From assembly GCA_964016885.1 (NCBI GenBank), contig CAXHJY010001049.1:1-26508 (forward strand): DNA of 26,508 nt, in the 5' to 3' direction. Under the pieces are notes generated by a model that did no database searches, was not told the DNA's origin, and saw only the letters and a program-made list of their open reading frames with translations. Of this stretch, positions 1 through 26,508 are shown one piece after another. Position 1 is the stretch's first letter. Each line of letters opens with the position of its first letter. Position numbers and translations under genes: made by a program. This stretch comes from Eledone cirrhosa (taxonomy: Eukaryota).

Positions 1-3000
1 ATTGTAGAGGGGGGAGTTGGTAGGGTGTGTATTGTAGAGGGGGGAGTTGGTAGAGTGTGTATTGTAGAGGGGGGAGTTGGTAGAGTGTGTATTGTAGAGG
101 GAGTTGGTAGAGTGTGTATTGTAGAGGGGGGAGTTGGTAGAGTGTGTATTGTAGAGGGAGTTGGTAGGGTGTGTATTGTAGAGGGGGGAGTTGGTAGAGT
201 GTGTATTGTAGAGGGGGGAGTTGGTGTTGGTAGGTGTGTATTGTAGAGGGGAGTTGGTAGAGTGTGTATTGTAGAGGGGGGAGTTGGTAGAGTGTGTATT
301 GTAGAGGGGAGTTGGTAGAGTGTGTATTGTAGAGGGGGGAGTTGGTAGAGTGTGTATTGTAGAGGGGGGAGTTGGTAGGGTGTGTATTGTAGAGGGAGTT
401 GGTAGAGTGTGTATTGTAGAGGGGGAGTTGGTAGAGTGTGTATTGTAGAGGGAGTTGGTAGAGTGTGTATTGTAGAGGGAGGGAGTTGGTATAGTGTGTA
501 TTGTAGAGGGAGTTGGTAGAGTGTGTATTGTAGAGGGAGGGAGTTGGTAGAGTGTGTATTGTAGAGGGAGTTGGTAGAGTGTGTATTGTAGAGGGGGTAG
601 GTGTATGTAGAGGGGGAGTTGGTAGGGTGTGTATTGTAGAGGGAGTTGGTAGAGTGTGTATTGTAGAGGGGGGAGTTGGTAGAGTGTGTATTGTAGAGGG
701 GGGAGTTGGTAGGGTGTGTATTGTAGAGGGAGGGATTTGGCAGAGTGTGTATTGTAGAGGCAGGGATTTGGTAGAGTGTGTATTGTAGAGGGGGAGTTGG
801 TAGAGTGTGTATTGTAGAGGGAGTTGGTAGAGTGTGTATTGTAGAGGGAGGGAGTTGGTATAGTGTGTATTGTAGAGGGAGTTGGTAGAGTGTGTATTGT
901 AGAGGGAGGGAGTTGGTATAGTGTGTATTGTAGAGGGAGTTGGTAGAGTGTGTATTGTAGAGGGGGGAGTTGGTAGAGTGTGTATTGTAGAGGGGGGAGT
1001 TGGTAGAGTGTGTATTGTAGAGGGAGTTGGTAGAGTGTGTATTGTAGAGGGGGGAGTTGGTAGAGTGTGTATTGTAGAGGGGGGAGTTGGTAGGGTGTGT
1101 ATTGTAGAGGGAGTTGGTAGAGTGTGTATTGTAGAGGGAGGGAGTTGGTATAGTGTGTATTGTAGAGGGAGTTGGTAGAGTGTGTATTGTAGAGGAGGGA
1201 GTTGGTATAGTGTGTATTGTAGAGGGAGTTGGTAGAGTGTGTATTGTAGAGGGGGGAGTTGGTAGAGTGTGTATTGTAGAGGGGGGAGTTGGTAGAGTGT
1301 GTATTGTAGAGGGAGTTGGTAGAGTGTGTATTGTAGAGGGGGGAGTTGGTAGAGTGTGTATTGTAGAGGGGGGAGTTGGTAGGGTGTGTATTGTAGAGGG
1401 AGTTGGTAGAGTGTGTATTGTAGAGGGGGGAGTTGGTAGAGTGTGTATTGTAGAGGGGGGAGTTGGTAGAGTGTGTATTGTAGAGGGGGGAGTTGGTAGA
1501 GTGTGTATTGTAGAGGGGGGAGTTGGTAGAGTGTGTATTGTAGAGGGAGGGGGGTAGAGTGTGTATTGTAGAGGGAGTTGGTAGAGTGTGTATTGTAGAG
1601 GGAGGGAGTTGGTAGAGTGTGTATTGTAGAGGGGGGAGTTGGTAGAGTGTGTATTGTAGAGGGAGTTGGTAGAGTGTGTATTGTAGAGGGGGGAGTTGGT
1701 AGGGTGTGTATTGTAGAGGGAGTTGGTAGAGTGTGTATTGTAGAGGGGGGAGTTGGTAGAGTGTGTATTGTAGAGGGGGGAGTTGGTAGAGTGTGTATTG
1801 TAGAGGGGGGAGTTGGTAGAGTGTGTATTGTAGAGGGGGGAGTTGGTAGAGTGTGTATTGTAGAGGGGGGAGTTGGTAGGGTGTGTATTGTAGAGGGAGT
1901 TGGTAGAGTGTGTATTGTAGAGGGGGGAGTTGGTAGAGTGTGTATTGTAGAGGGGGGAGTTGGTAGGGTGTGTATTGTAGAGGGAGTTGGTAGAGTGTGT
2001 ATTGTAGAGGGGGAGTTGGTAGAGTGTGTATTGTAGAGGGGGGAGTTGGTAGGGTGTGTATTGTAGAGGGAGTTGGTAGAGTGTGTATTGTAGAGGGGGG
2101 AGTTGGTAGAGTGTGTATTGTAGAGGGGGGAGTTGGTAGGGTGTGTATTGTAGAGGGAGTTGGTAGAGTGTGTATTGTAGAGGGAGGGAGTTGGTAGAGT
2201 GTGTATTGTAGAGGGAGGGAGTTGGTATAGTGTGTATTGTAGAGGGGGGAGTTGGTAGAGTGTGTATTGTAGAGGGAGGGGGGTAGAGTGTGTATTGTAG
2301 AGGGGGGAGTTGGTAGAGTGTGTATTGTAGAGGGGGGAGTTGGTAGAGTGTGTATTGTAGAGGGAGTTGGTAGAGTGTGTATTGTAGAGGGGGGAGTTGG
2401 TAGAGTGTGTATTGTAGAGGGGGGAGTTGGTAGAGTGTGTATTGTAGAGGGGGGAGTTGGTAGAGTGTGTATTGTAGGGGGAGTTGGTAGAGTGTGTATT
2501 GTAGAGGGAGGGAGTTGGTAGAGTGTGTATTGTAGAGGGAGGGAGTTGGTATAGTGTGTATTGTAGAGGGGGGAGTTGGTAGAGTGTGTATTGTAGAGGG
2601 GGGAGTTGGTAGAGTGTGTATTGTAGAGGGAGTTGGTAGAGTGTGTATTGTAGAGGGAGGGAGTTGGTAGAGTGTGTATTGTAGAGGGAGGGAGTTGGTA
2701 TAGTGTGTATTGTAGAGGGGGGAGTTGGTAGAGTGTGTATTGTAGAGGGAGGGGGGGTAGAGTGTGTATTGTAGAGGGGGGAGTTGGTAGAGTGTGTATT
2801 GTAGAGGGGGGAGTTGGTAGAGTGTGTATTGTAGAGGGAGTTGGTAGAGTGTGTATTGTAGAGGGGGGAGTTGGTAGAGTGTGTATTGTAGAGGGGGGAG
2901 TTGGTAGGGTGTGTATTGTAGAGGGAGTTGGTAGAGTGTGTATTGTAGAGGGGGGAGTTGGTAGAGTGTGTATTGTAGAGGGAGTTGGTAGAGTGTGTAT

Positions 3001-6000
3001 TGTAGAGGGAGGGAGTTGGTATAGTGTGTATTGTAGAGGGGGGGAGTTGGTAGAGTGTGTATTGTAGAGGGAGTTGGGAGAGTGTGTATTGTAGAGGGAG
3101 GGAGTTGGTAGAGTGTGTATTGTAGAGGGAGGGAGTTGGTAGAGTGTGTATTGTAGAGGGAGGGAGTTGGTAGAGTGTGTATTGTAGAGGGGGGAGTTGG
3201 TAGAGTGTGTATTGTAGAGGGAGTTGGGAGAGTGTGTATTGTAGAGGGAGGGAGTTGGTATAGTGTGTATTGTAGAGGGGGGAGTTGGTAGAGTGTGTAT
3301 TGTAGAGGGGGAGTTGGTAGAGTGTGTATTGTAGAGGGAGGGAGTTGGTAGAGTGTGTATTGTAGAGGGAGGGAGTTGGTAGAGTGTGTATTGTAGAGGG
3401 GGGAGTTGGTAGAGTGTGTATTGTAGAGGGGGGAGTTGGTAGAGTGTGTATTGTAGAGGGGGGAGTTGGTAGGGTGTGTATTGTAGAGGGGAGTTGGTAG
3501 AGTGTGTATTGTAGAGGGGGAGTTGGTAGAGTGTGTATTGTAGAGGGGGGAGTTGGTAGAGTGTGTATTGTAGAGGGAGTTGGTAGAGTGTGTATTGTAG
3601 AGGGAGGGAGTTGGTAGAGTGTGTATTGTAGAGGGAGGGAGTTGGTATAGTGTGTATTGTAGAGGGAGGGGGGTAGAGTGTGTATTGTAGAGGGAGTTGG
3701 TAGAGTGTGTATTGTAGAGGGAGGGAGTTGGTAGAGTGTGTATTGTAGAGGGAGGAGTTGGTAGAGTGTGTATTGTAGAGGGAGTTGGTAGAGTGTGTAT
3801 TGTAGAGGGAGGGAGTTGGTAGAGTGTGTATTGTAGAGGGAGGGAGTTGGTATAGTGTGTATTGTAGAGGGGGGAGTTGGTAGAGTGTGTATTGTAGAGG
3901 GAGGGGGGTAGAGTGTGTATTGTAGAGGGAGGGAGTTGGTAGAGTGTGTATTGTAGAGGGGGGAGTTGGTAGGGTGTGTATTGTAGAGGGAGGGAGTTGG
4001 TAGAGTGTGTATTGTAGAGGGAGGAGTTGGTAGAGTGTGTATTGTAGAGGGAGTTGGTAGAGTGTGTATTGTAGAGGGAGGGAGTTGGTAGAGTGTGTAT
4101 TGTAGAGGGAGGGAGTTGGTATAGTGTGTATTGTAGAGGGGGGAGTTGGTAGAGTGTGTATTGTAGAGGGAGGGGGGTAGAGTGTGTATTGTAGAGGGAG
4201 GGAGTTGGTAGAGTGTGTATTGTAGAGGGGGGAGTTGGTAGGGTGTGTATTGTAGAGGGAGGGAGTTGGTAGAGTGTGTATTGTAGAGGGAGGAGTTGGT
4301 AGAGTGTGTATTGTAGAGGGAGTTGGTAGAGTGTGTATTGTAGAGGGAGGGAGTTGGTAGAGTGTGTATTGTAGAGGGAGGGAGTTGGTATAGTGTGTAT
4401 TGTAGAGGGGGGAGTTGGTAGAGTGTGTATTGTAGAGGGAGGGGGGTAGAGTGTGTATTGTAGAGGGAGGGAGTTGGTAGGGTGTGTATTGTAGAGGGAG
4501 GGAGTTGGTAGAGTGTGTATTGTAGAGGGAGTTGGTAGAGTGTGTATTGTAGAGGGAGGGAGTTGGTAGAGTGTGTATTGTAGAGGGAGGGAGTTGGTAG
4601 AGTGTGTATTGTAGAGGGAGTTGGTAGAGTGTGTATTGTAGAGGGAGGGAGTTGGTATAGTGTGTATTGTAGAGGGGGGAGTTGGTAGAGTGTGTATTGT
4701 AGAGGGAGGAGTTGGTAGAGTGTGTATTGTAGAGGGGGGAGTTGGTAGGGTGTGTATTGTAGAGGGAGGGAGTTGGTAGAGTGTGTATTGTAGAGGGGGA
4801 GTTGGTAGAGTGTGTATTGTAGAGGGAGGAGTTGGTAGAGTGTGTATTGTAGAGGGGGAGTTGGTAGAGTGTGTATTGTAGAGGGAGTTGGTAGAGTGTG
4901 TATTGTAGAGGGAGGGAGTTGGTATAGTGTGTATTGTAGAGGGGGGAGTTGGTAGAGTGTGTATTGTAGAGGGAGGAGTTGGTAGAGTGTGTATTGTAGA
5001 GGGGGGAGTTGGTAGAGTGTGTATTGTAGAGGGGGGAGTTGGTAGAGTGTGTATTGTAGAGGGGGGAGTTGGTAGAGTGTGTATTGTAGAGGGAGGGAGT
5101 TGGTAGAGTGTGTATTGTAGAGGGAGTTGGTAGAGTGTGTATTGTAGAGGGGGGGAGTTGGTAGAGTGTGTATTGTAGAGGGGGAGTTGGTAGAGTGTGT
5201 ATTGTAGAGGGAGGAGTTGGGAGAGTGTGTATTGTAGAGGGGGGAGTTGGTAGAGTGTGTATTGTAGAGGGAGGGAGTTGGGAGAGTGTGTATTGTAGAG
5301 GGAGGGAGTTGGTAGAGTGTGTATTGTAGAGGGGAGTTGGGAGAGTGTGTATTGTAGAGGGGGGAGTTGGTAGAGTGTGTATTGTAGAGGGCGGAGTTGG
5401 TAGAGTGTGTATTGTAGAGGGGGGAGTTGGTAGAGTGTGTATTGTAGAGGAGGGAGTTGGTAGAGTGTGTATTGTAGAGGGAGGAGTTGGGAGAGTGTGT
5501 ATTGTAGAGGGGGGGAGTTGGTAGAGTGTGTATTGTAGAGGGGGGAGTTGGTAGAGTGTGTATTGTAGAGGGAGGGAGTTGGTAGAGTGTGTATTGTAGA
5601 GGGGGAGTTGGTAGAGTGTGTATTGTAGAGGGAGGAGTTGGGAGAGTGTGTATTGTAGAGGGGGGAGTTGGGAGAGTGTTATTGTAGAGGGGGGAGTTGG
5701 TAGAGTGTGTATTGTAGAGGGAGGGAGTTGGTAGAGTGTGTATTGTAGAGGGGGGAGTTGGTAGAGTGTGTATTGTAGAGGGAGGGAGTTGGGAGAGTGT
5801 GTATTGTAGAGGGAGTTGGGAGAGTGTGTATTGTAGAGGGGGGGAGTTGGTAGAGTGTGTATTGTAGAGGGCGGAGTTGGTAGAGTGTGTATTGTAGAGG
5901 GGGGAGTTGGTAGAGTGTGTATTGTAGAGGAGGGAGTTGGTAGAGTGTGTATTGTAGAGGGAGGGAGTTGGCAGAGTGTGTATTGTAGAGGGAGGGAGTT

Positions 6001-8846
6001 GGGAGAGTGTGTATTGTAGAGGAGGGAGTTGGCAGAGTGTGTATTGTAGAGGAGGGAGTTGGCAGAGTGTGTATTGTAGAGGGCGGAGTTGGTAGAGTGT
6101 GTATTGTAGAGGAGGGAGTTGGCAGAGTGTGTATTGTAGAGGGAGTTGGGAGAGTGTGTATTGTAGAGGGCGGAGTTGGTAGAGTGTGTATTGTAGAGGG
6201 GGAGTTGGTAGAGTGTGTATTGTAGAGGGAGGGAGTTGGTAGAGTGTGTATTGTAGAGGGGGAGTTGGTAGAGTGTGTATTGTAGAGGAGGGAGTTGGGA
6301 GAGTGTGTATTGTAGAGGGAGGGAGTTGGTAGAGTGTGTATTGTAGAGGGAGTTGGGAGAGTGTGTATTGTAGAGGGGGGGAGTTGGTAGAGTGTGTATT
6401 GTAGAGGGCGGAGTTGGTAGAGTGTGTATTGTAGAGGGGGGAGTTGGTAGAGTGTGTATTGTAGAGGAGGGAGTTGGTAGAGTGTGTATTGTAGAGGGAG
6501 GGAGTTGGCAGAGTGTGTATTGTAGAGGGAGGGAGTTGGGAGAGTGTGTATTGTAGAGGGAGGAGTTGGTAGAGTGTGTATTGTAGAGGGAGGGAGTTGG
6601 GAGAGTGTGTATTGTAGAGGGAGGGAGTTGGTAGAGTGTGTATTGTAGAGGAGGGAGTTGGCAGAGTGTGTATTGTAGAGGGAGGGAGTTGGGAGAGTGT
6701 GTATTGTAGAGGGAGGGAGTTGGTAGAGTGTGTATTGTAGAGGGAGGGAGTTGGTAGAGTGTGTATTGTAGAGGGAGGGAGTTGGAAGAGTGTGTATTGT
6801 AGAGGGAGGGAGTTGGTAGAGTGTGTATTGTAGAGGAGGGAGTTGGCAGAGTGTGTATTGTAGAGGAGGGAGTTGGCAGAGTGTGTATTGTAGAGGGCGG
6901 AGTTGGTAGAGTGTGTATTGTAGAGGAGGGAGTTGGTAAGAAGTGTGTATTGTAGAGGGAGGGAGTTGGTAGAGTGTGTATTGTAGAGGAGGGAGTTGGC
7001 AGAGTGTGTATTGTAGAGGGAGTTGGGAGAGTGTGTATTGTAGAGGGCGGAGTTGGTAGAGTGTGTATTGTAGAGGGGGGAGTTGGTAGAGTGTGTATTG
7101 TAGAGGGAGGAGTTGGTAGAGTGTGTATTGTAGAGGAGGGAGTTGGCAGAGTGTGTATTGTAGAGGGAGTTGGGAGAGTGTGTATTGTAGAGGGCGGAGT
7201 TGGTAGAGTGTGTATTGTAGAGGGCGGAGTTGGTAGAGTGTGTATTGTAGAGGGGGGAGTTGGTAGAGTGTGTATTGTAGAGGGAGGAGTTGGCAGAGTG
7301 TGTATTGTAGAGGGAGGGAGTTGGTAGAGTGTGTATTGTAGAGGGGGAGTTGGCAGAGTGTGTATTGTAGAGGGAGGGAGTTGGTAGAGTGTGTATTGTA
7401 GAGGGGGGAGTTGGCAGAGTGTGTATTGTAGAGGGGGGGAGTTGGTAGAGTGTGTATTGTAGAGGGCGGAGTTGGTAGAGTGTGTATTGTAGAGGGGGAG
7501 TTGGTAGAGTGTGTATTGTAGAGGAGGATTGAGTTGGTAGAGTGTGTATTGTAGAGGGCGGAGTTGGTAGAGTGTGTATTGTAGAGGGGGGAGTTGGTAG
7601 AGTGTGTATTGTAGAGGCAGGGATTTGGCAGAGTGTGTATTGTAGAGGCAGGGATTTGGCAGAGTGTGTATTGTAGAGGGAGGGAGTTGGAAGAGTGTGT
7701 ATTGTAGAGGGCGGAGTTGGTAGAGTGTGTATTGTAGAGGAGGGAGTTGGCAGAGTGTGTATTGTAGAGGGCGGAGTTGGTAGAGTGTGTATTGTAGAGG
7801 GGGGAGTTGGTAGAGTGTGTATTGTAGAGGCGGAGTTGGTAGAGTGTGTATTGTAGAGGAGGGAGTTGGCAGAGTGTGTATTGTAGAGGCAGGGATTTGG
7901 TAGAGTGTGTATTGTAGAGGGGGGAGTTGGTAGAGTGTGTATTGTAGAGGAGGGAGTTGGCAGAGTGTGTATTGTAGAGGGGGGAGTTGGTAGAGTGTGT
8001 ATTGTAGAGGGAGGGAGTTGGCAGAGTGTGTATTGTAGAGGGAGGGAGTTGGTAGAGTGTGTATTGTAGAGGGGGGAGTTGGCAGAGTGTGTATTGTAGA
8101 GGGCGGAGTTGGTAGAGTGTGTATTGTAGAGGGGGGAGTTGGTAGAGTGTGTATTGTAGAGGAGGGAGTTGGCAGAGTGTGTATTGTAGAGGGGGGAGTT
8201 GGTAGAGTGTGTATTGTAGAGGAGGGAGTTGGCAGAGTGTGTATTGTAGAGGGCGGAGTTGGTAGAGTGTGTATTGTAGAGGGGGGAGTTGGTAGAGTGT
8301 GTATTGTAGAGGAGGGAGTTGGCAGAGTGTGTATTGTAGAGGCAGGGATTTGGCAGAGTGTGTATTGTAGAGGCAGGGATTTGGCAGAGTGTGTATTGTA
8401 GAGGGAGGGAGTTGGAAGAGTGTGTATTGTAGAGGGGGGAGTTGGTAGAGTGTGTATTGTAGAGGGAGGGAGTTGGCAGAGTGTGTATTGTAGAGGGAGG
8501 GAGTTGGTAGAGTGTGTATTGTAGAGGGCGGAGTTGGTAGAGTGTGTATTGTAGAGGAGGGAGTTGGCAGAGTGTGTATTGTAGAGGGCGGAGTTGGTAG
8601 AGTGTGTATTGTAGAGGGGGGAGTTGGTAGAGTGTGTATTGTAGAGGAGGGAGTTGGCAGAGTGTGTATTGTAGAGGCAGGGATTTGGCAGAGTGTGTAT
8701 TGTAGAGGCAGGGATTTGGCAGAGTGTGTATTGTAGAGGGAGGGAGTTGGAAGAGTGTGTATTGTAGAGGGAGGGAGTTGGAAGAGTGTATTGTAGAGGG
8801 AGGAGTTGGCAGAGTGTGTATTGTAGAGGGGGGGAGTTGGCAGAGT
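1..8846. repeat. G-rich minisatellite, unit ATTGTAGA-(G/A-rich variable spacer)-AGTTGG(T/C/G)AGAGTGTGT, 27-31 bp, roughly 300 copies; truncated by window start
   Basis: Continuous tandem units; length variation is almost confined to the G-run after GTAGA; the + strand is nearly free of C; last partial unit ends ...GGGGAGTTGGCAGAGT at 8846. Confidence 0.98.
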
Positions 8847-18512: not shown

Positions 18513-18528
<16 letters not shown>

Positions 18529-18682
18529 AGGCGGGTAAAACTCCCAAGATCCATGGACGAGTTCTCTCCAGCGGTCTCTGTCCCTCATTATCGCTGCCAT
18601 ATCCTGCATCTCCAACAGACCAGTGTCTGTCCTACATGGACACACTAGAAGGGGAAGACCAAGGTTAACATATGTTGATACA
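18513..18682 (-). mobile_element. 5'-truncated, 5'-inverted RTE-clade LINE 3' fragment
   Basis: Minus strand 18633-18526 encodes [35 protein letters not shown] running into a (TAGA)4 tail. Plus strand 18632-18682 encodes [17 protein letters not shown], the motif that normally precedes DTG...M.DR..WR in RTE ORF C-termini. Confidence 0.75.
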
Positions 18683-18749
18683 TATACATATATACATACA
18701 TACATATATATATATATACATACATATATATATATATATACATACATAC

Positions 18750-18787
<38 letters not shown>

Positions 18788-18937
18788 ATACATACATATA
18801 TATACATATATATATATATACATACATATATATGTATGTATATATATATATATGTATGTATATATATATATATGTATATATATGTATGTATATATATATA
18901 TATATATATACATACATATATATATATATATACATAC

Positions 18938-18968
<31 letters not shown>

Positions 18969-18998
18969 CATACATATATATATATATACATACATATA

Positions 18999-19039
<41 letters not shown>

Positions 19040-19070
19040 ATACATACATATATATATATATACATACATA
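18681..19070. repeat. (TA)n/(TACA)n microsatellite, left flank of the LINE
   Basis: Direct reading. Confidence 0.95.
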
Positions 19071-19150
19071 CGTGTTTTTACTTCTCTCCCCGAGTAAGCA
19101 GCAAGTCACACAGCCACAAAACAAAACCACAAGACAAAACCAAACAAACA

Positions 19151-19251
19151 AAAATTGACCGGTTAATACATTTTCATACATCTATATTATTATATATTTG
19201 AAAATTGACCGGTTAATACATTTTTCATACATCTATATTATTATATATTTG
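19151..19251 (+). repeat. 50/51-bp tandem duplication in the LINE 5' region
   Basis: AAAATTGACCGGTTAATACATTTT(T)CATACATCTATATTATTATATATTTG at 19151 and 19201. Confidence 0.95.
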
Positions 19252-19265
19252 AAACCACGTGTTTT

Positions 19266-19743
19266 CGAACTTGTGAGTACATTTTCCTTTAACTACAAAT
19301 TATTATTATATACTTTCGTCTTTTCATTAACTTAATTAATTTCAAATAACCAGAATATACATATATATATATATACTCATATTTATATATATACGCTTCT
19401 CACTCACACACAAGAAAAACAAAAAACAAAAATAAATCAAAAATAAATTTAAAAAAAATATATATATATTGAAATACTTAACTAAAACACACACACACGA
19501 ACTTGTGAGAACATTTTCCTTTAACTACAAATTATTATTATATACTTTCGTCTTTTCATTAACTTAATTAATTTCAAATAACCAGAATATACATATATAT
19601 ATATATATATACTCATATTTATATATATACGCTTCTCACTCACACACAAGAAAAACAAAAAACAAAAATAAATCAAAAATAAATTTAAAAAAAAAATAAA
19701 ATATATATATATATTGAAATACTTAACTAAAACACACACACAC
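19266..19743 (+). repeat. ~232-bp tandem duplication in the LINE 5'UTR (19266-19497 / 19498-19743)
   Basis: Both copies begin CGAACTTGTGAG.ACATTTTCCTTTAACTAC and end GAAATACTTAACTAAAACACACAC; they differ mainly in simple-repeat lengths. Confidence 0.95.
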
Positions 19744-19754
19744 TCAAAACTAGA

Positions 19755-20942
19755 ATGGCTAACCAGCAAAAATCCAAACAGAACTGGTCTGATAATGAAA
19801 TCGACATTCTAATAAACACATGGCATTGCCTTTCCCAAACAGAAAATATAGATGCTTCATCTCTGAACGACATTGCTAAACGTACAGTTCAATTTTTGAA
19901 AACTCGATCTGAACAACAGATTCAAAATAAATTAAAGCAAATCGAAATTGCTTTTAAATTAATCAATAAACATTTGGATAAACTACGGTGTGTTTTCTCT
20001 TTGAATGCTGTCCAGCAGCAGCAACAACAACAACAGCAGCTACAACAGCAACAACAACAACAGCAGCTACAACAGCAACAACAACAACAACAACAACAGC
20101 TACAACAACAACAACAGCAACAACAACAACAACAACGACAACAACAGTGTGAACCACTCCTTGATTCATCAACAATGGCCGATCTACTAAATGAAACTAT
20201 TGACCCCCCAGTAGCCTCTGTCTCACAGCATGAAACGCCACATCCTTTCTCTGGCCCAGCAGTCCAATCATCATCACCACTGCCAACATCTCTGCCTACT
20301 ACTACTACTACTACTACAACATTTTTGTCTACTGCTATGTCAAGGAATTTACCTTCTAATACCAGAACAAGAACTCTCCCTCCCACAGTCCACAAAGGTC
20401 ATCAAATCCTACCCAAACCATCATCTACACCTCTCACAACACCCACACCCACATGCCCACCCACTCGAAACCCCATCATTTGCCGCTACTCTCTACGCTA
20501 TAGAATATGTACGGATAGTGGCTGCAAATTCACCCATTTACCTAGGACAAAACGATCTATCCCCACAAACAGCCACCACCATAATACATACTCTAATTTA
20601 ACACCAACACAACCACCAATAACTCAAACAAGGAATCCACAAATCTGCCGTTTTTCCCTGCGAGACAGATTGTGTTTAGACCGGGATTGTCCCTTTACCC
20701 ATCTCCCGGGGACCCGTCGGATAAATGAAAATAAAATTAAAAATAAAAGCAAAAACAAAAACCATAACCTACATAAAAATAACCACTACCACAGTCACCA
20801 ACAGTCTTCTAAACAGGAAACTTCTTCCTCTTTTTTAGCCATAATGAATCTGGCAAAAGAACTGGAAAAAAACATTCGAGCTATCACCCAGCACCACCCT
20901 CCACTATCACCCCACTGCACAAACTCCCATTGCTGCCATTAA
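19755..20942 (+). CDS. LINE ORF1 protein, 395 aa: N-terminal Myb/SANT(trihelix)-like domain, polyQ tract, Pro/Thr/Ser-rich linker, two CCCH zinc fingers
   Basis: ATG start; WSDNEIDILINTW...IAK...RSEQQIQNKLKQI; C-x8-C-x4-C-x3-H at 20481-20537 and 20646-20702; lies immediately upstream of the RT ORF. Confidence 0.85.
   Translation: MANQQKSKQNWSDNEIDILINTWHCLSQTENIDASSLNDIAKRTVQFLKTRSEQQIQNKLKQIEIAFKLINKHLDKLRCVFSLNAVQQQQQQQQQLQQQQQQQQLQQQQQQQQQQLQQQQQQQQQQQRQQQCEPLLDSSTMADLLNETIDPPVASVSQHETPHPFSGPAVQSSSPLPTSLPTTTTTTTTFLSTAMSRNLPSNTRTRTLPPTVHKGHQILPKPSSTPLTTPTPTCPPTRNPIICRYSLRYRICTDSGCKFTHLPRTKRSIPTNSHHHNTYSNLTPTQPPITQTRNPQICRFSLRDRLCLDRDCPFTHLPGTRRINENKIKNKSKNKNHNLHKNNHYHSHQQSSKQETSSSFLAIMNLAKELEKNIRAITQHHPPLSPHCTNSHCCH
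20013..20147 (+). repeat. In-frame CAA/CAG repeat (about 41 Gln in 45 codons)
   Basis: CAA/CAG run broken by three CTA (Leu) and one CGA (Arg). Confidence 0.95.
20831..20837 (+). promoter_or_regulatory. Candidate -1 ribosomal frameshift slippery heptamer T_TTT_TTA
   Basis: In phase with ORF1 codons (TCT TTT TTA); the -1 frame is open from the TAA at 20810-12 straight into ORF2. Confidence 0.65.
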
Positions 20943-23900
20943 CAAACAAACAAATTAACAACACACCAAAACAATTAAAACCATCCACTCTCGCCTCTAC
21001 ATTTTTGCTTAACGCCCAAGGCATCAGCCCTTCCACCAATACTCAAAAATGGAAGATCAAATTCCTGGAGGACTGGATTGATGTCCATCCAAACCACATC
21101 CCTTTCTTCGTCCTCACTGAAACCCATCTCAGTAACCTCCACTTGGAAGCCGAGGTGAAAGTGAAAAATTTCAAAGCCATCCGTGCTGATCGCGCTGGCA
21201 GAAGAAAGGGCGGAACTGCCATTTATGTCCATAATTCTTTCTCAACAGAGGCTATGAACATATTCACTAATGGATACTGTGAGGCAGTCACTGTATTCAG
21301 TCAAACCAACAACCTATTAGTAGTTGGGCTCTATAGGCCACCCCAAACGCCTGTACCATGCTTCAAGGAATGCCTCAACAGCATAAAGTGTTTCATCCAA
21401 GAGTGTCACCCTGACAACATCTTAATGATGGGGGACTTCAACCTCCCCGGAGTTGACTGGTCCACAAACACCCTGCCACCAGGTTCTTCTGCCTCAACCT
21501 CTGACAGGGAAGCTGTGGAATCGCTTCTTGACTTCATGGATGATTTCTTCCTATCCCAACTAGTGCTCGAACCAACGAGGTGCCACAAAAACGTCCTAGA
21601 CTTAATTTTCAGCAATCACACTGACAATATCCACAATATTGCAGTGGAGAAAACTCTACTCTCTGATCATGACATGGTTCTCTGTGATCTGAGATTCCAC
21701 CGTCCAATATACAAACCCAATGTCATTTCTCCTGTCCATCCGTTTGACGCTATGGATTTCCACAATGCAAACTGGGAAGCGATCAGTCATGATCTTGCAC
21801 ATGTCGACTGGTCCTTCACGCACACTCATACACCCACTAACATCAAAAAGTCCTGGCAGACTTTTGTGGACACTGTTACAAACATATGTGCTAAACACAC
21901 CCCATTAAGAACTATAAACAAATCTAAGAGCAGAATCCCTAGAAATAGAAAAACACTCATCAGAAAAATTAAGAGAACGAACAAAAAAATCAACAAGCTG
22001 AAATACTGTCAGCAGCAACACATCAACTTGACTGCCATTTCATCACTAGAGATTAAAAAACATAACCTCCAAAACAACATAATGTCCCTCATCAACAATC
22101 AGAGAAGAGCTGAAGAGGCCTGGGCCATTGAGAAGATCAAACTCAATCCCAAAGTGTTCTTTTCATTTGCAAAAAAACACAAAATCACTGGCTCTACTGT
22201 TGGCCCTCTAATTGATGAAAATGGCACTCTTCAAGACAATGCTAAAACCATGGGTGAGATACTGCAGAAACAATACTGCTCTGTTTTCAGCAATCCTGAT
22301 ATGGCCGATCTGGGCTGTATCGGCGATGTTACTCCCCATTACACCTTATCGGACATAACGTTTGGCGCCCCTGATGTCTTGGCGGCAATAAAGGAAATCA
22401 AACATAATTCAGCAGTAGGTCCCGATAGGTTCCCTGCTTGTGTCTTGAAGGCGTGTCAACACCAACTTGCTTCTCCTCTTGCCAATCTGTGGCGGAACTC
22501 ACTGGATGCTGGATATGTGCCAGAAAACCTTCTATCCCAGTCTGTTGTCCCAGTTTTCAAAAAGGGAAACAAATCCCTTGCCGTGAATTACCGTCCAATC
22601 TCACTCACCTCTCATATCATTAAGGTATTTGAGCGAGTGGTGAGATCGCGAATGACCCACTTCCTTGAGAGTAACAATATGCTGAACTCCAACCAGCATG
22701 GATTCCGTAATGGAAGGGATTGCCTGACGCAACTACTGCATCACTTTGATGACATTTTGAGAGCCTTGGGAGAGGGTTCCAACACTGATGTTATCTACCT
22801 TGATTTCAGCAAGGCCTTTGACAGGGTTGATCATAACATTCTACTGAGAAAGCTGTCCAATATTGGTGTCACTGGAAAGCTGCTGCAGTGGATCAAGAGC
22901 TTCCTGTCAAACAGAACCCAACATGTTGTAGTTGAGGGAGTCAAATCAAGCCCAGCCAAAGTCAGTAGTGGAGTCCCACAAGGCACTGTGTTGGGCCCAC
23001 TTCTCTTCATCATCTATATTAATGACATCACTGACATCATCAAACACAGCAACATTAAAATTTTCGCTGATGATTCCAAGCTCCAAAAGGTCATCAATGG
23101 CGTGGATGACCGGATAAGCCTTCAGTCAGACCTACTGGCTGTTACCCAATGGGCAGAAAAGAACAACATGTTACTGAACGAAGACAAATTCGAACTGATC
23201 CACTTTGGAAAAGAGGATGCTCTGAAACTCCCGTACTCCCTTCCCTCCGGGGAAACTCTCGTGGCATCTAACAACATCAGAGACTTGGGAGTAACCGTGG
23301 ACAGCAACATAAGCTGGACCACGCATATAAGCAGCAAAGTTGACATGGCCCGCAGAATGTGTTCCTGGATCCTCAGAACCTTCCAGTCGAGAGATTCCCG
23401 CACCATTATCCTTCTCTTCTCTACTTTCGCCCGACCACACCTTGAATACTGTTGTCCACTGTGGTCTCCCCACACGAAACAAAGTATCATGAAACTTGAA
23501 GCTCCTCAAAGGGCAATCACGAAAAAGATAGATGGCATGTCAGACCTTGACTACTGGGGTCGATTGGAAAACCTGAAACTTTACTCACTCCAACGTCGCC
23601 GTGAGCGTTATATTATCTGCATGATGTGGAAAATGTTCCATCATCACTGCCCAAATGATGTTGGCATCGCCTTCAAGATACACCCAAGGCTTGGGCCCCG
23701 TGCTATCCGTCCCATTCAAAAATCTAAATCGCAACTCATAACAACAATACGGCACAATTATTTCACCTCAATCGGCCCTGCTCTCTTCAACATCACACCA
23801 GGACACGTCAAAACAGAAACTGACCACACAAGATTCAAGAAGTCTTTGGACAAATTCCTCCAAGTAATCCCGGACAAACCACCCACACCCGGATATGTCT

Positions 23901-23950
23901 CCGCAAACAGTAATTCTCTTCTCGAATGGGCCATGGTGCCCAAATCCTGA
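20930..23950 (+). CDS. LINE ORF2: APE-type endonuclease + reverse transcriptase, CR1 group (frame open from 20813; the TTG start is a track artefact)
   Basis: EN motifs [46 protein letters not shown] motifs [44 protein letters not shown]-terminal [13 protein letters not shown] and [10 protein letters not shown]. No stops or frameshifts. Confidence 0.97.
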
Positions 23951-23996
23951 ATTGAAAGACTTCGCCAGGTGGTGCTATTAAGTTAGACATGGCCTG

Positions 23997-24035
23997 GGCC
24001 AATACTGGCCAAAACATTTCAAAGTTATTCAAAGT

Positions 24036-24037
<2 letters not shown>
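23997..24037 (+). other. LINE 3' terminal stem-loop and tandem tail
   Basis: GGCCA-ATAC-TGGCC hairpin (23997-24010), then TTCAAAGTTA x2 (24018-24037); a stem-loop plus short-repeat tail is characteristic of CR1/L2-group 3' ends. Confidence 0.7.
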
Positions 24038-24087
<50 letters not shown>

Positions 24088-24095
24088 CATACATA

Positions 24096-24136
<41 letters not shown>

Positions 24137-24474
24137 ATACATACATATATATATATATACATACATATATATATATATACATACATATATATATACATAC
24201 ATACATATATATATATATACATACATATATATATACATACATACATATACATATATATATATATATACATACATATACATACATACATATACATATATAT
24301 ATATACATATATATATACATACATACATATACATATACATATATACATATATATATACATACATACACATATATATATATACACATACATATATATATAT
24401 ATACACATACATATATATATATATACACATACATATATATATATATATATACACATACATATATATATATATAT

Positions 24475-24505
<31 letters not shown>

Positions 24506-25226
24506 CACACATACATATATATATATATATATACACACATACATATATATATATATATATACACACATACATATATATATATATATATACACACATACAT
24601 ATATATATATATATATACACATACATACATATATATATATATACACATACATATATATATATATACACATACATATATATATATATACACATACATATAT
24701 ATATATATACACATACATATATATATATATACACATACATATATATATATATACACATACATATATATATATATACACATACATATATATATATATACAC
24801 ATACATATATATATATATACACATACATATATATATATATACACATACATATATATATATATACACATACATATATATATACACATACATATATATATAT
24901 ATACACATACATATATATACACATACATATACATATACATACATATATACACATACATATATATATATATACACATACATATATATATATATACACATAC
25001 ATATATATATATATACACATACATATATATATATATACACATACATATATATATATATACACATACATATATATATATATACACATACATATATATATAT
25101 ATATACATACATATATATATATATACATACATATATATATACATACATATATATATATACATACATATATATATATATACATACATATATATATATATAT
25201 ACATACAATATATATACATACATATA

Positions 25227-25258
<32 letters not shown>

Positions 25259-25371
25259 CATATATATATACATACATATATATATATATACATACATACA
25301 TATATATATACATACATACATATATATACATACATACATATATATATATATACATACATACATATAAATAC

Positions 25372-25410
<39 letters not shown>

Positions 25411-25487
25411 CATATATATATATATACATACATACATATATATACATACATACATATATATACATACATACATATATATATATATAC

Positions 25488-25521
<34 letters not shown>

Positions 25522-25525
25522 ATAC

Positions 25526-25559
<34 letters not shown>

Positions 25560-25605
25560 ATATACATACATACATATATATATACATACATACATATATA
25601 TATAC

Positions 25606-25639
<34 letters not shown>

Positions 25640-25645
25640 ATATAC

Positions 25646-25679
<34 letters not shown>

Positions 25680-25685
25680 ATATAC

Positions 25686-25747
<62 letters not shown>

Positions 25748-26497
25748 ATACATACATACATATATATATACATACATATATATATATACATACATATATA
25801 TATATATACATACATATATATATATATACATACATATATATATATACATACATATATATATATATACACACATATATATATATACACACACATATATATA
25901 TATATACACACATATATATATATATACACACATATATATATATATACACACATATATATATATACACACATATATATATATATACACACATATATATATA
26001 TATACACACATATATATATATATACTCACATATATATATATATATACTCACATATATATATATATATACTCACATATATATATATATATATACTCACATA
26101 TATATATATATATATACTCACATATATATATATATATACACACATATATATATATACATACATATATATATATATACATACATACATATATACATACATA
26201 TATATATACATACATATATATATATATATACATACATACATATATACATACATATATATATACATACATATATATATATATATACATACATACATATATA
26301 TATATATATACATACATATATATATATATACACACACATATATATATATACACACATATATATATATACACACATATATATATATACACACATATATATA
26401 TATACACATATATATCTATATATATACACACATATATATATATATATACATACATATATATTTATATATATACACACACATATATATATATACACAC
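24038..26497. repeat. ~2.5 kb compound (TA)n/(TACA)n/(CA) microsatellite, right flank of the LINE
   Basis: Direct reading; local 18-bp units ACACATACATATATATAT at ~24640-25090. Confidence 0.97.
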
Positions 26498-26508
26498 AAA
26501 CTGGAAAA

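What the first reader, a model, noticed from the sequence alone, without database searches (positions are those of the whole stretch)
19755..20942. CR1-group LINE ORF1 with unusual Myb/SANT-like + polyQ + tandem CCCH architecture
Seen: N-terminal NWSDNEIDILINTW...IAKR...RSEQQIQNKLKQIEIAFK has the W-S-x2-E...LI..W...RS..QI..K pattern of trihelix/Myb-SANT-like DNA-binding domains, as in Harbinger accessory proteins. Two C-x8-C-x4-C-x3-H fingers follow. Established: CR1/L2 ORF1s typically carry PHD, RRM/Tnp22-like, esterase or CCHC modules; none is evident here. Inference: a captured DNA-binding domain plus RNA-binding fingers could tether the RNP to targets such as TA/TACA tracts, which would be a distinct ORF1 type.
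Basis: partly seen in the sequence, partly recalled or inferred. Interest (0 to 1): 0.75.

Follow-up and report, generated by a model that had tools for sequence, protein, structure and literature searches.

The report
Myb-tipped LINE targeting TA repeats
A young, abundant jumping gene sits almost only inside TA-repeat DNA and its first protein begins with a Myb-type fold in place of the module its closest relatives carry, and ribosome slippage likely fuses that protein to the cutting-and-copying enzyme, which would give the enzyme a DNA-binding tip that may help steer it to those repeats.

Summary
The 395-aa ORF1 has a Myb/SANT-like (Myb_DNA-bind_4) three-helix domain, a polyQ run and two C-x8-C-x4-C-x3-H fingers. 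The Pfam hit is just under cut-off here but over it in a sister family and one other homologue. The domain is under purifying selection. The fingers are an ancestral trait of the clade; the Myb domain is the novelty and stands where three relatives have PHD-like modules. The element is a young, high-copy CR1-group LINE that inserts into (TA)n arrays: 57 of 58 and 28 of 28 3' flanks, against 7.8% background and 0 of 10 for a co-resident CR1-type family. New here: ORF2 has no AUG before the endonuclease and overlaps ORF1 in the -1 frame at an in-phase U_UUU_UUA, kept in all five best-ranked distant relatives. So ORF2 is likely made as a Myb-CCCH-APE-RT fusion, an R2-like layout. That the Myb domain does the targeting is unproven; the endonuclease alone may suffice. 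This scan has noted CR1 slippery sites before in other genomes, and other TA-targeting elements in this one (unchecked notes). It showed no note on a Myb ORF1.

The parts
19070..19754 (+). 5' UTR of the LINE (this copy lacks about 25 nt of the family's 5' head); holds a 51-bp tandem duplication and a ~232-bp duplicated block (19266-19498 / 19498-19743)
19755..20942 (+). ORF1, 395 aa
19779..19976 (+). Myb/SANT-like (Myb_DNA-bind_4, trihelix/MSANTD-type) three-helix domain, aa 9-74
20013..20147 (+). polyQ (CAA/CAG) linker, aa 87-131; 30-47 residues among 56 copies
20481..20537 (+). CCCH finger 1 (C-x8-C-x4-C-x3-H)
20646..20702 (+). CCCH finger 2; both fingers resemble the last finger of the clade's CCCH array
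20831..20837 (+). in-phase U_UUU_UUA slippery heptamer in the ORF1/ORF2 overlap; predicted -1 frameshift site
20867..20873 (+). second in-phase heptamer A_AAA_AAC (57 of 59 family copies; G_AAA_AAC in the sister family)
20813..23950 (+). ORF2 frame (1045 codons, -1 to ORF1, 130-nt overlap); APE from about 21005, RT core about 22586-23300; first AUG only at 21254, inside the APE
23951..24037 (+). 3' UTR ending in a short tandem-repeat tail (10-nt unit, two copies, 24018-24037); no poly(A)
18669..19069 (.). (TA)n/TACA array, 5' part of the target
24036..26498 (.). (TA)n/TACA array, 3' part of the target

Best explanation
This is a young CR1-group LINE family that inserts into (TA)n microsatellites, whose ORF1 protein begins with a Myb/SANT-like three-helix domain that likely binds DNA and is likely joined to the endonuclease and reverse transcriptase by a -1 ribosomal frameshift. 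Most ribosomes would make ORF1p (Myb, polyQ, two CCCH fingers that are predicted to bind the element's RNA). A minority would slip at U_UUU_UUA and make one Myb-CCCH-APE-RT protein. The Myb domain would hold the particle on AT-rich arrays while the APE makes the nick and the RT copies from the short repeat tail. Shown: architecture, selection, target bias, the AUG-less -1 overlap and the conserved heptamer. Inferred: frameshifting (about 0.75), DNA binding (about 0.65), a role of Myb in target choice (about 0.45).
For: Myb domain: Pfam PF13837 matches 10 of 12 aligned members and passes the cut-off of 27 bits in the sister family (32.3) and in P0037 (31.7). Of 4 hits among 1.84 billion proteins, the only named one is a fish 'Myb-like domain-containing protein' (E 1.4e-4). 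Profile-profile match to five host Myb_DNA-bind_4 domains: probability 88.6%, 63 columns. AlphaFold on 12 element-type sequences gives three helices, pLDDT 80, pTM 0.65; the nearest folds are homeodomains (DUX4 Z 7.7, rmsd 1.8, 64 aligned), Zeste (Z 6.5, rmsd 2.9, 63) and GT-1 (Z 6.2, rmsd 5.1, 74). dN/dS 0.13-0.19. Targeting: 3' flanks are TA-rich in 57 of 58 copies and 28 of 28, against 7.8% of 19,940 background windows. 5' flanks are TA-rich in 48 of 58 and at 5 of 5 truncation junctions inside ORF2. The two flanks of one copy share array variants (cosine 0.56 vs 0.30; 0 of 10,000 permutations reach it). Sister family: 8 of 8. A co-resident CR1-type family without Myb: 0 of 10. Three non-Myb clade relatives with a visible 3' end: 0 of 3. 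Frameshift: no Met before the APE in 59 of 59 copies. U_UUU_UUA is present in 59 of 59 family copies, 9 of 12 sister copies and 5 of the 5 best-ranked metagenome relatives at 37-47% ORF2 identity. In-phase heptamers occur in 13 of 16 elements with a -1 overlap, against 1 and 3 in the wrong phases, 10 of 173 control windows and 0 of 4 elements with a +1 overlap. The held-out family C has G_GGA_AAC plus stop in the same layout.
Against: The window's own domain is below the Pfam cut-off. No fold match reaches Z 8, and Foldseek gives none at E<=0.001. The second and third Trp of Myb repeats (recalled consensus) are replaced, and the domain is not strongly basic overall (read from the sequence), so it could be a SANT-like protein-binding module. 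The gain of Myb and of TA targeting is one evolutionary event, so the correlation is weak. 3 of 10 Ty3/gypsy copies were also TA-flanked (rough boundaries). A clade member of unknown ORF1 (L136) ends in (TACA)n. Unchecked scan notes report unrelated elements targeting (TA)n in this genome. No conserved stimulatory RNA structure follows the heptamer (z from -2.2 to +0.8 at 8 sites). The heptamer plus the next G also reads as a splice acceptor in 7 of those 8 sites, counting one with the AG three bases on. 6 of the 16 -1 elements have a Met more than 30 codons before the APE Glu.
Confidence: 0.45

Rival explanations
1. The endonuclease, with pairing of the TA-ending tail to the target and the unusual structure of (TA)n DNA, picks the target alone. 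The Myb/SANT-like domain replaces the ancestral PHD in a general chromatin-, protein- or promoter-binding role.
For: A reference title seen (Takahashi and Fujiwara 2002) says that swapping endonuclease domains of two LINEs transplants target specificity; the paper itself was not held. The Myb domain sits where relatives have PHD modules. Other element types in this genome lean to (TA)n without such a domain (unchecked notes).
Against: The non-Myb relatives examined are not TA-flanked (0 of 3; 0 of 10). In cockroach, site-specific R2 has a c-myb motif and non-specific BLAG elements lack it (PMC7650587, passages and title). TRE5-A ORF1p takes part in target recognition (PMC5911963, passages).
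Confidence: 0.35
2. ORF2 is made apart from ORF1, by AUG-independent reinitiation as proposed for L1, from a near-cognate codon, or from a spliced RNA that uses the U-tract plus AG as acceptor. The Myb domain would then act only from ORF1p.
For: L1 ORF2 is thought to use an AUG-independent initiation (PMC5009743, passage). Near-cognate codons exist in the ORF2 frame before the APE. There is no conserved stimulator. The junction looks like an acceptor, and a phase-2 GT after the Myb domain (19988) would splice in frame.
Against: In-phase heptamers of several different sequences are enriched only in -1 overlaps, which splicing or reinitiation does not predict. L134 keeps U_UUU_UUA without a following AG. 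The GT at 19988 is a weak donor, and the sister family encodes other residues there.
Confidence: 0.2
3. The TA association is not targeting: the element adds TA repeats itself, or copies elsewhere are removed by selection.
For: The tail ends in TA and could seed slippage. No empty site was seen.
Against: 5' junctions of truncated copies are TA-rich too. The two flanks share locus-specific array variants. Copies are about 99% identical, so young. An intact co-resident family is not TA-flanked.
Confidence: 0.05

Closest known systems
CR1/L2-lineage LINEs and ORF1 types I-V (Metcalfe and Casane 2014, PMC4120745; parts 1-2 of 6 read, whole text searched)
   Same: Two ORFs, APE plus RT, short repeat tail, 5' truncation, swappable ORF1 modules.
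   Different: No RRM, CCHC, PHD, Tnp22 or esterase hit. Myb/SANT-like plus CCCH is not among the listed types, so it would fall in unclassified type V. Strong microsatellite targeting.
Unnamed CCCH-ORF1 clade from metagenomes (L130-L134)
   Same: One RT clade with support 1.0, CCCH array ending in the same motif, -1 overlap with U_UUU_UUA.
   Different: Their ORF1s start with helical and PHD-like modules (Pfam PHD 31.1 bits in L130), not Myb. The three with a visible 3' end are not followed by (TA)n.
R2 elements (PMC7650587, passages)
   Same: N-terminal zinc fingers and a c-myb-like DNA-binding motif on the RT polypeptide of a site-specific LINE; the predicted fusion has a similar layout.
   Different: R2 has one ORF, a restriction-like endonuclease, CCHH fingers before the Myb motif and an rDNA target.
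Dictyostelium TRE5-A / TRE3-A (PMC5911963, PMC5006619, passages)
   Same: APE-type LINEs said to need a -1 frameshift for ORF2; TRE5-A ORF1p takes part in target choice.
   Different: L1 clade; targeting through TFIIIB near tRNA genes, not through a DNA-binding domain or microsatellites.
Target-specific LINEs of the R1, Tx1 and early-branched groups, microsatellite-targeting ones among them, e.g. Mino on AC repeats (PMC4640811, PMC3124438, passages)
   Same: Repeats as safe target sites; R1 and Tx1 use an APE.
   Different: The review names early-branched, Tx1 and R1 as holding most target-specific families; the CR1 group is not named among them.
Myb_DNA-bind_4 / MSANTD / trihelix domains (GT-1, Zeste; host genes L101-L105)
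   Same: Profile, first-helix motif and three-helix fold.
   Different: Only 28% identity to the nearest host domain tested; later aromatic positions replaced; sits in a LINE ORF1.

Membership tests
CR1-group (Jockey superfamily) LINE | ORF2 with APE followed by RT | tested here: met
   Pfam Exo_endo_phos_2 and RVT_1
CR1-group (Jockey superfamily) LINE | Short tandem-repeat 3' tail without poly(A), and 5' truncation | tested here: met
CR1-group (Jockey superfamily) LINE | RT phylogeny with named clade references (CR1, CR1-Zenon, L2) | not testable with these tools
   The tree holds only unnamed loci and proteins; the element falls in a clade with support 1.0 among elements with CR1-type ORF1s (judged from recalled motifs); the exact clade name is open
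ORF1 types I-IV of CR1/L2 | RRM+CCHC, Tnp22, PHD or esterase domain | tested here: not met
   No such Pfam match at E<=10; no HHpred available
Myb_DNA-bind_4 (PF13837) | Score at or above the curated cut-off of 27 bits | tested here: inconclusive
   23.8 bits for the window domain; 32.3 and 31.7 for homologues
Myb_DNA-bind_4 (PF13837) | Three-helix homeodomain-like fold | tested here: met
   Predicted model, pLDDT 80; nearest folds are homeodomains, Zeste and GT-1 at Z 6.2-7.7, all under Z 8
Myb_DNA-bind_4 (PF13837) | Sequence-specific DNA binding | not testable with these tools
   Needs EMSA or SELEX; R51, N58, K59 and K61 at the start of and in helix 3 are conserved
CCCH zinc finger | C-x8-C-x5-C-x3-H spacing and Pfam cut-off | tested here: inconclusive
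   Spacing is x8-x4-x3; zf-C3H1 19.6 bits against 20.9, zf-CCCH_2 17.9 against 25.8
Programmed -1 frameshift site | In-phase X_XXY_YYZ heptamer inside a -1 overlap | tested here: met
Programmed -1 frameshift site | Downstream stimulatory hairpin or pseudoknot | tested here: inconclusive
   No conserved stable hairpin at 8 sites; pseudoknots and protein stimulators not tested
Programmed -1 frameshift site | Measured fusion product | not testable with these tools
   Needs a reporter, ribosome profiling or proteomics
Microsatellite-specific LINE | Both junctions of independent copies lie in one repeat type, above background | tested here: met

The most novel reading that the evidence does not exclude
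A CR1-group LINE took up a host Myb/SANT-like domain in place of its PHD module and uses a retrovirus-style -1 frameshift to put it on its endonuclease-RT. That would rebuild an R2-like, DNA-guided integration protein that reads (TA)n, a modular targeting design in a group not listed as site-specific.
Probability: 0.3. Interest if true: 0.85.

Novelty: new variant of a known kind. Interest (0 to 1): 0.64.

Why it matters
It adds an ORF1 architecture to the CR1 group and shows near-complete microsatellite targeting in a group not named among the site-specific ones. The conserved slippery site gives a direct test of how AUG-less CR1 ORF2s are translated, here in invertebrate-type elements. If the fusion and DNA binding hold, target choice in an APE LINE could be set by a swappable ORF1 domain, which bears on how site specificity evolves and on retrotransposon-based gene insertion. 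The family is intact in many copies, so it can be assayed.

Tried and rejected
Single-sequence AlphaFold gave pTM 0.38 and only generic helical matches; it was set aside for the alignment-based model. A PDB sequence search with the domain profile gave coiled-coil peptides only. Word-index protein searches with the whole ORF1 and with the CCCH region found nothing among proteins of 217-692 aa, although relatives exist, so these blanks say little. The ESM Atlas gave no answer. Expression: no RNA holder was listed. Four contig sets laid on 20150-23950 showed no joint or loose end at the putative acceptor among the rows shown (11 joints and 307 loose ends were not shown); this is no evidence either way. 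A search of my own genome with a distant ORF2 returned rows that look like this family by frame length and position. The viral collection gave 2 weak RT hits. Target-site duplications could not be called inside TA arrays. Host locus L103 as direct donor: 28% identity only, not established. Literature: searches (Myb or CCCH in LINE ORF1; frameshift in LINEs; CR1 and microsatellites) listed no paper that describes this ORF1, a CR1 slippery site or a TA-specific CR1. Repbase, Dfam and most subscription papers were not searchable, so 'not in print' is limited to these searches; supplements were not read.

Full report
Observation. The + strand ORF at 19755-20942 encodes 395 aa: an N-terminal helical domain, a 45-residue polyQ, an S/T/P-rich linker, two C-x8-C-x4-C-x3-H fingers and a short C-terminal helix. 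An open frame of 1045 codons with APE and RT follows, then a 3' UTR with a 10-nt repeat tail. TA/TACA arrays lie on both sides. The host is a 3.0-Gb animal genome; earlier unchecked notes call it an octopus, which fits my own impression and was not tested.

The family. A search with aa 1-87 found 882 candidates; all 150 scored were at least 97% identical. I fetched 60 of the best-ranked copies. They are about 97-100% identical to the window copy; ORF1 is intact in 54 of 60 and both ORFs in 37 of 60. This sample was chosen by N-terminal identity, so it favours young copies. An older sister family (B) surfaced through the Pfam search. Of 20 fetched loci, those that extend far enough show the same order: Myb-like domain, polyQ, two CCCH fingers, the same C-terminal helix.

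Is the N-terminal domain Myb/SANT-like? Pfam Myb_DNA-bind_4 scores 23.8 bits on the window domain, under the cut-off of 27. It matches 10 of 12 aligned members and passes the cut-off in family B (32.3) and in P0037 (31.7). A scan of 1.84 billion representatives gave 4 hits: three unnamed proteins at 35-40% identity and one fish protein named 'Myb-like domain-containing protein'. The element profile aligns with five host domains at 88.6% probability. A model built on 12 element-type sequences, with no known Myb protein in the alignment, has three helices and pLDDT 80. Its nearest folds are homeodomains, with Zeste and GT-1 among the rows, but all are under Z 8 and Foldseek finds nothing significant. 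The single-sequence model failed. dN/dS between families A and B is 0.13-0.19, close to 0.12 for an RT block. I take the assignment as about 90% likely; DNA binding is untested.

What is new in ORF1. The five best-ranked of 80 metagenome loci fall in one RT clade with the window, support 1.0 (unnamed references only, segments over 200 aa kept). Four of them show CCCH arrays; the fifth starts too late to tell. The window's two fingers match the last finger of such an array (43% over 28 aa). The three with a whole ORF1 begin with helical and PHD-like modules (Pfam PHD in L130 only). So the CCCH part is ancestral and the Myb domain is likely a replacement. The survey of 448 elements lists neither (PMC4120745: parts 1-2 read; term search), nor does a 2026 paper on vertebrate CR1 (PMC13343379, term search only).

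Targeting. With 'TA-rich' set as at least 8 TA in 30 nt, 57 of 58 3' flanks pass (2 of 60 lacked the anchor), against 7.8% of 19,940 windows from 20 arbitrarily placed 10-kb stretches. A second set picked by the 3' end gave 28 of 28 (2 of 30 lacked the anchor; one copy is shared with the first set), and 5 of 5 visible truncation junctions inside ORF2 were TA-rich on the 5' side. In the first set 48 of 58 5' flanks pass; several misses are junctions miscalled inside UTR repeats. The two flanks of a copy share array variants more than flanks of different copies (0.56 vs 0.30), as expected for insertion into existing arrays or growth from a duplicated target. Family B: 8 of 8 copies with a 3' end. 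Controls: a co-resident CR1-type family C (RT 44% identical, no Myb hit, cysteine-rich ORF1) has 0 of 10 at the 3' side and 1 of 10 at the 5' side; Ty3/gypsy copies have 3 of 10, with rough boundaries.

How ORF2 is made. The ORF2 frame opens 130 nt before the ORF1 stop, in the -1 frame, and its first AUG lies inside the APE; 59 of 59 copies have no Met before APE motif I. The overlap holds U_UUU_UUA in phase (59 of 59) and A_AAA_AAC (57 of 59); family B keeps the first in 9 of 12. All five best-ranked relatives have U_UUU_UUA in phase. From each element's codon use, the chance of these codons given the residues is 1-2% each; the product, 2e-10, overstates the case because the elements are related. 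Of the 80 loci, 26 passed a filter for an intact ORF2 start and an upstream ORF. With the window, 16 have a -1 overlap, 5 a +1 offset and 6 the same frame. 13 of the 16 have an in-phase heptamer, against 1 and 3 in the wrong phases and 10 of 173 upstream windows; 0 of 4 +1 overlaps do. A four-heptamer set chosen after I had seen the data gives 12 of 16, 0, 0 and 2 of 173. Family C, examined afterwards, ends ORF1 on G_GGA_AAC plus stop in the same layout. These heptamers are known shift sites (PMC5009743, passages). Against: no conserved stimulator, an acceptor-like reading of the site, and upstream Mets in 6 of 16 elements. The acceptor reading fails in L134, which has no AG there.

Mechanism. 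Most likely ORF1p packages the RNA through its CCCH fingers (inferred from the finger class), a minority of ribosomes shift at U_UUU_UUA to give a Myb-CCCH-APE-RT protein, and the Myb domain helps hold the particle on TA arrays where the APE nicks. Precedents: R2 carries N-terminal fingers and a c-myb motif, absent from non-specific BLAG elements (PMC7650587, passages); TRE5-A is said to use a -1 frameshift and its ORF1p contacts TFIIIB (PMC5911963, passages). The main rival is that the APE picks the target alone (reference title; unchecked notes on unrelated TA-targeting elements here). One gain of Myb cannot separate the two.

Novelty. A review passage places most target-specific LINEs in the early-branched, Tx1 and R1 groups (PMC4640811). 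An octopus repeat paper lists recently active CR1 families without describing ORF1 or targets in the passages seen (PMC13282606). Ten paper searches found no account of this ORF1, of CR1 slippery sites or of a TA-specific CR1, but Repbase and Dfam were out of reach. This scan has noted CR1 frameshift sites in other genomes; I had recorded the site before seeing those notes. It showed no note on a Myb ORF1. Other papers touched, by passages only and without bearing on the verdict: PMC3124438, PMC10294476, PMC9115989, PMC7175516, PMC5405496, PMC4700185, PMC5006619. Verdict: new variant of a known kind, interest 0.64.

Noticed in passing
window 1-8846: A G-rich 30-bp satellite of about 300 copies with almost complete GC skew.
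   Followed up: no
window 18526-18668 (- strand): A short coding fragment that looks like the C-terminus of an RTE-type LINE (recalled motif) interrupts the 7-kb TA array just upstream of the element; a similar piece lies downstream of L126.
   Followed up: no
L135-L191 (metagenome CR1-type loci): CR1-type junctions fall into three kinds: -1 overlap with a slippery heptamer, +1 overlap with a Met in the first 7 codons of ORF2 (4 of 4), and same frame across a stop (6 loci), which suggests frameshift, reinitiation and readthrough as alternative routes.
   Followed up: partly
L242-L251 (G000 family C): A second CR1-type family with intact 945-codon ORF2, a cysteine-rich ORF1 without Pfam hit, a (TTA)n tail, G_GGA_AAC plus stop at the junction and no TA preference.
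   Followed up: partly
L103, L104 (G000 C24): Two short host Myb_DNA-bind_4 open frames 35 kb apart whose first helix is close to that of ORF1 (10 of 15 residues identical in L103); possible relatives of the donor.
   Followed up: partly
window 19266-19743: The 5' UTR carries a ~232-bp duplicated block present in one or two copies among family members, and has its own short TA runs, which resembles monomer-type LINE promoters.
   Followed up: no
runs X1, X2, X23 (organisms A, B, D): Related elements covering ORF2 and the CCCH region occur in other coded organisms, mostly at under 95% identity.
   Followed up: no
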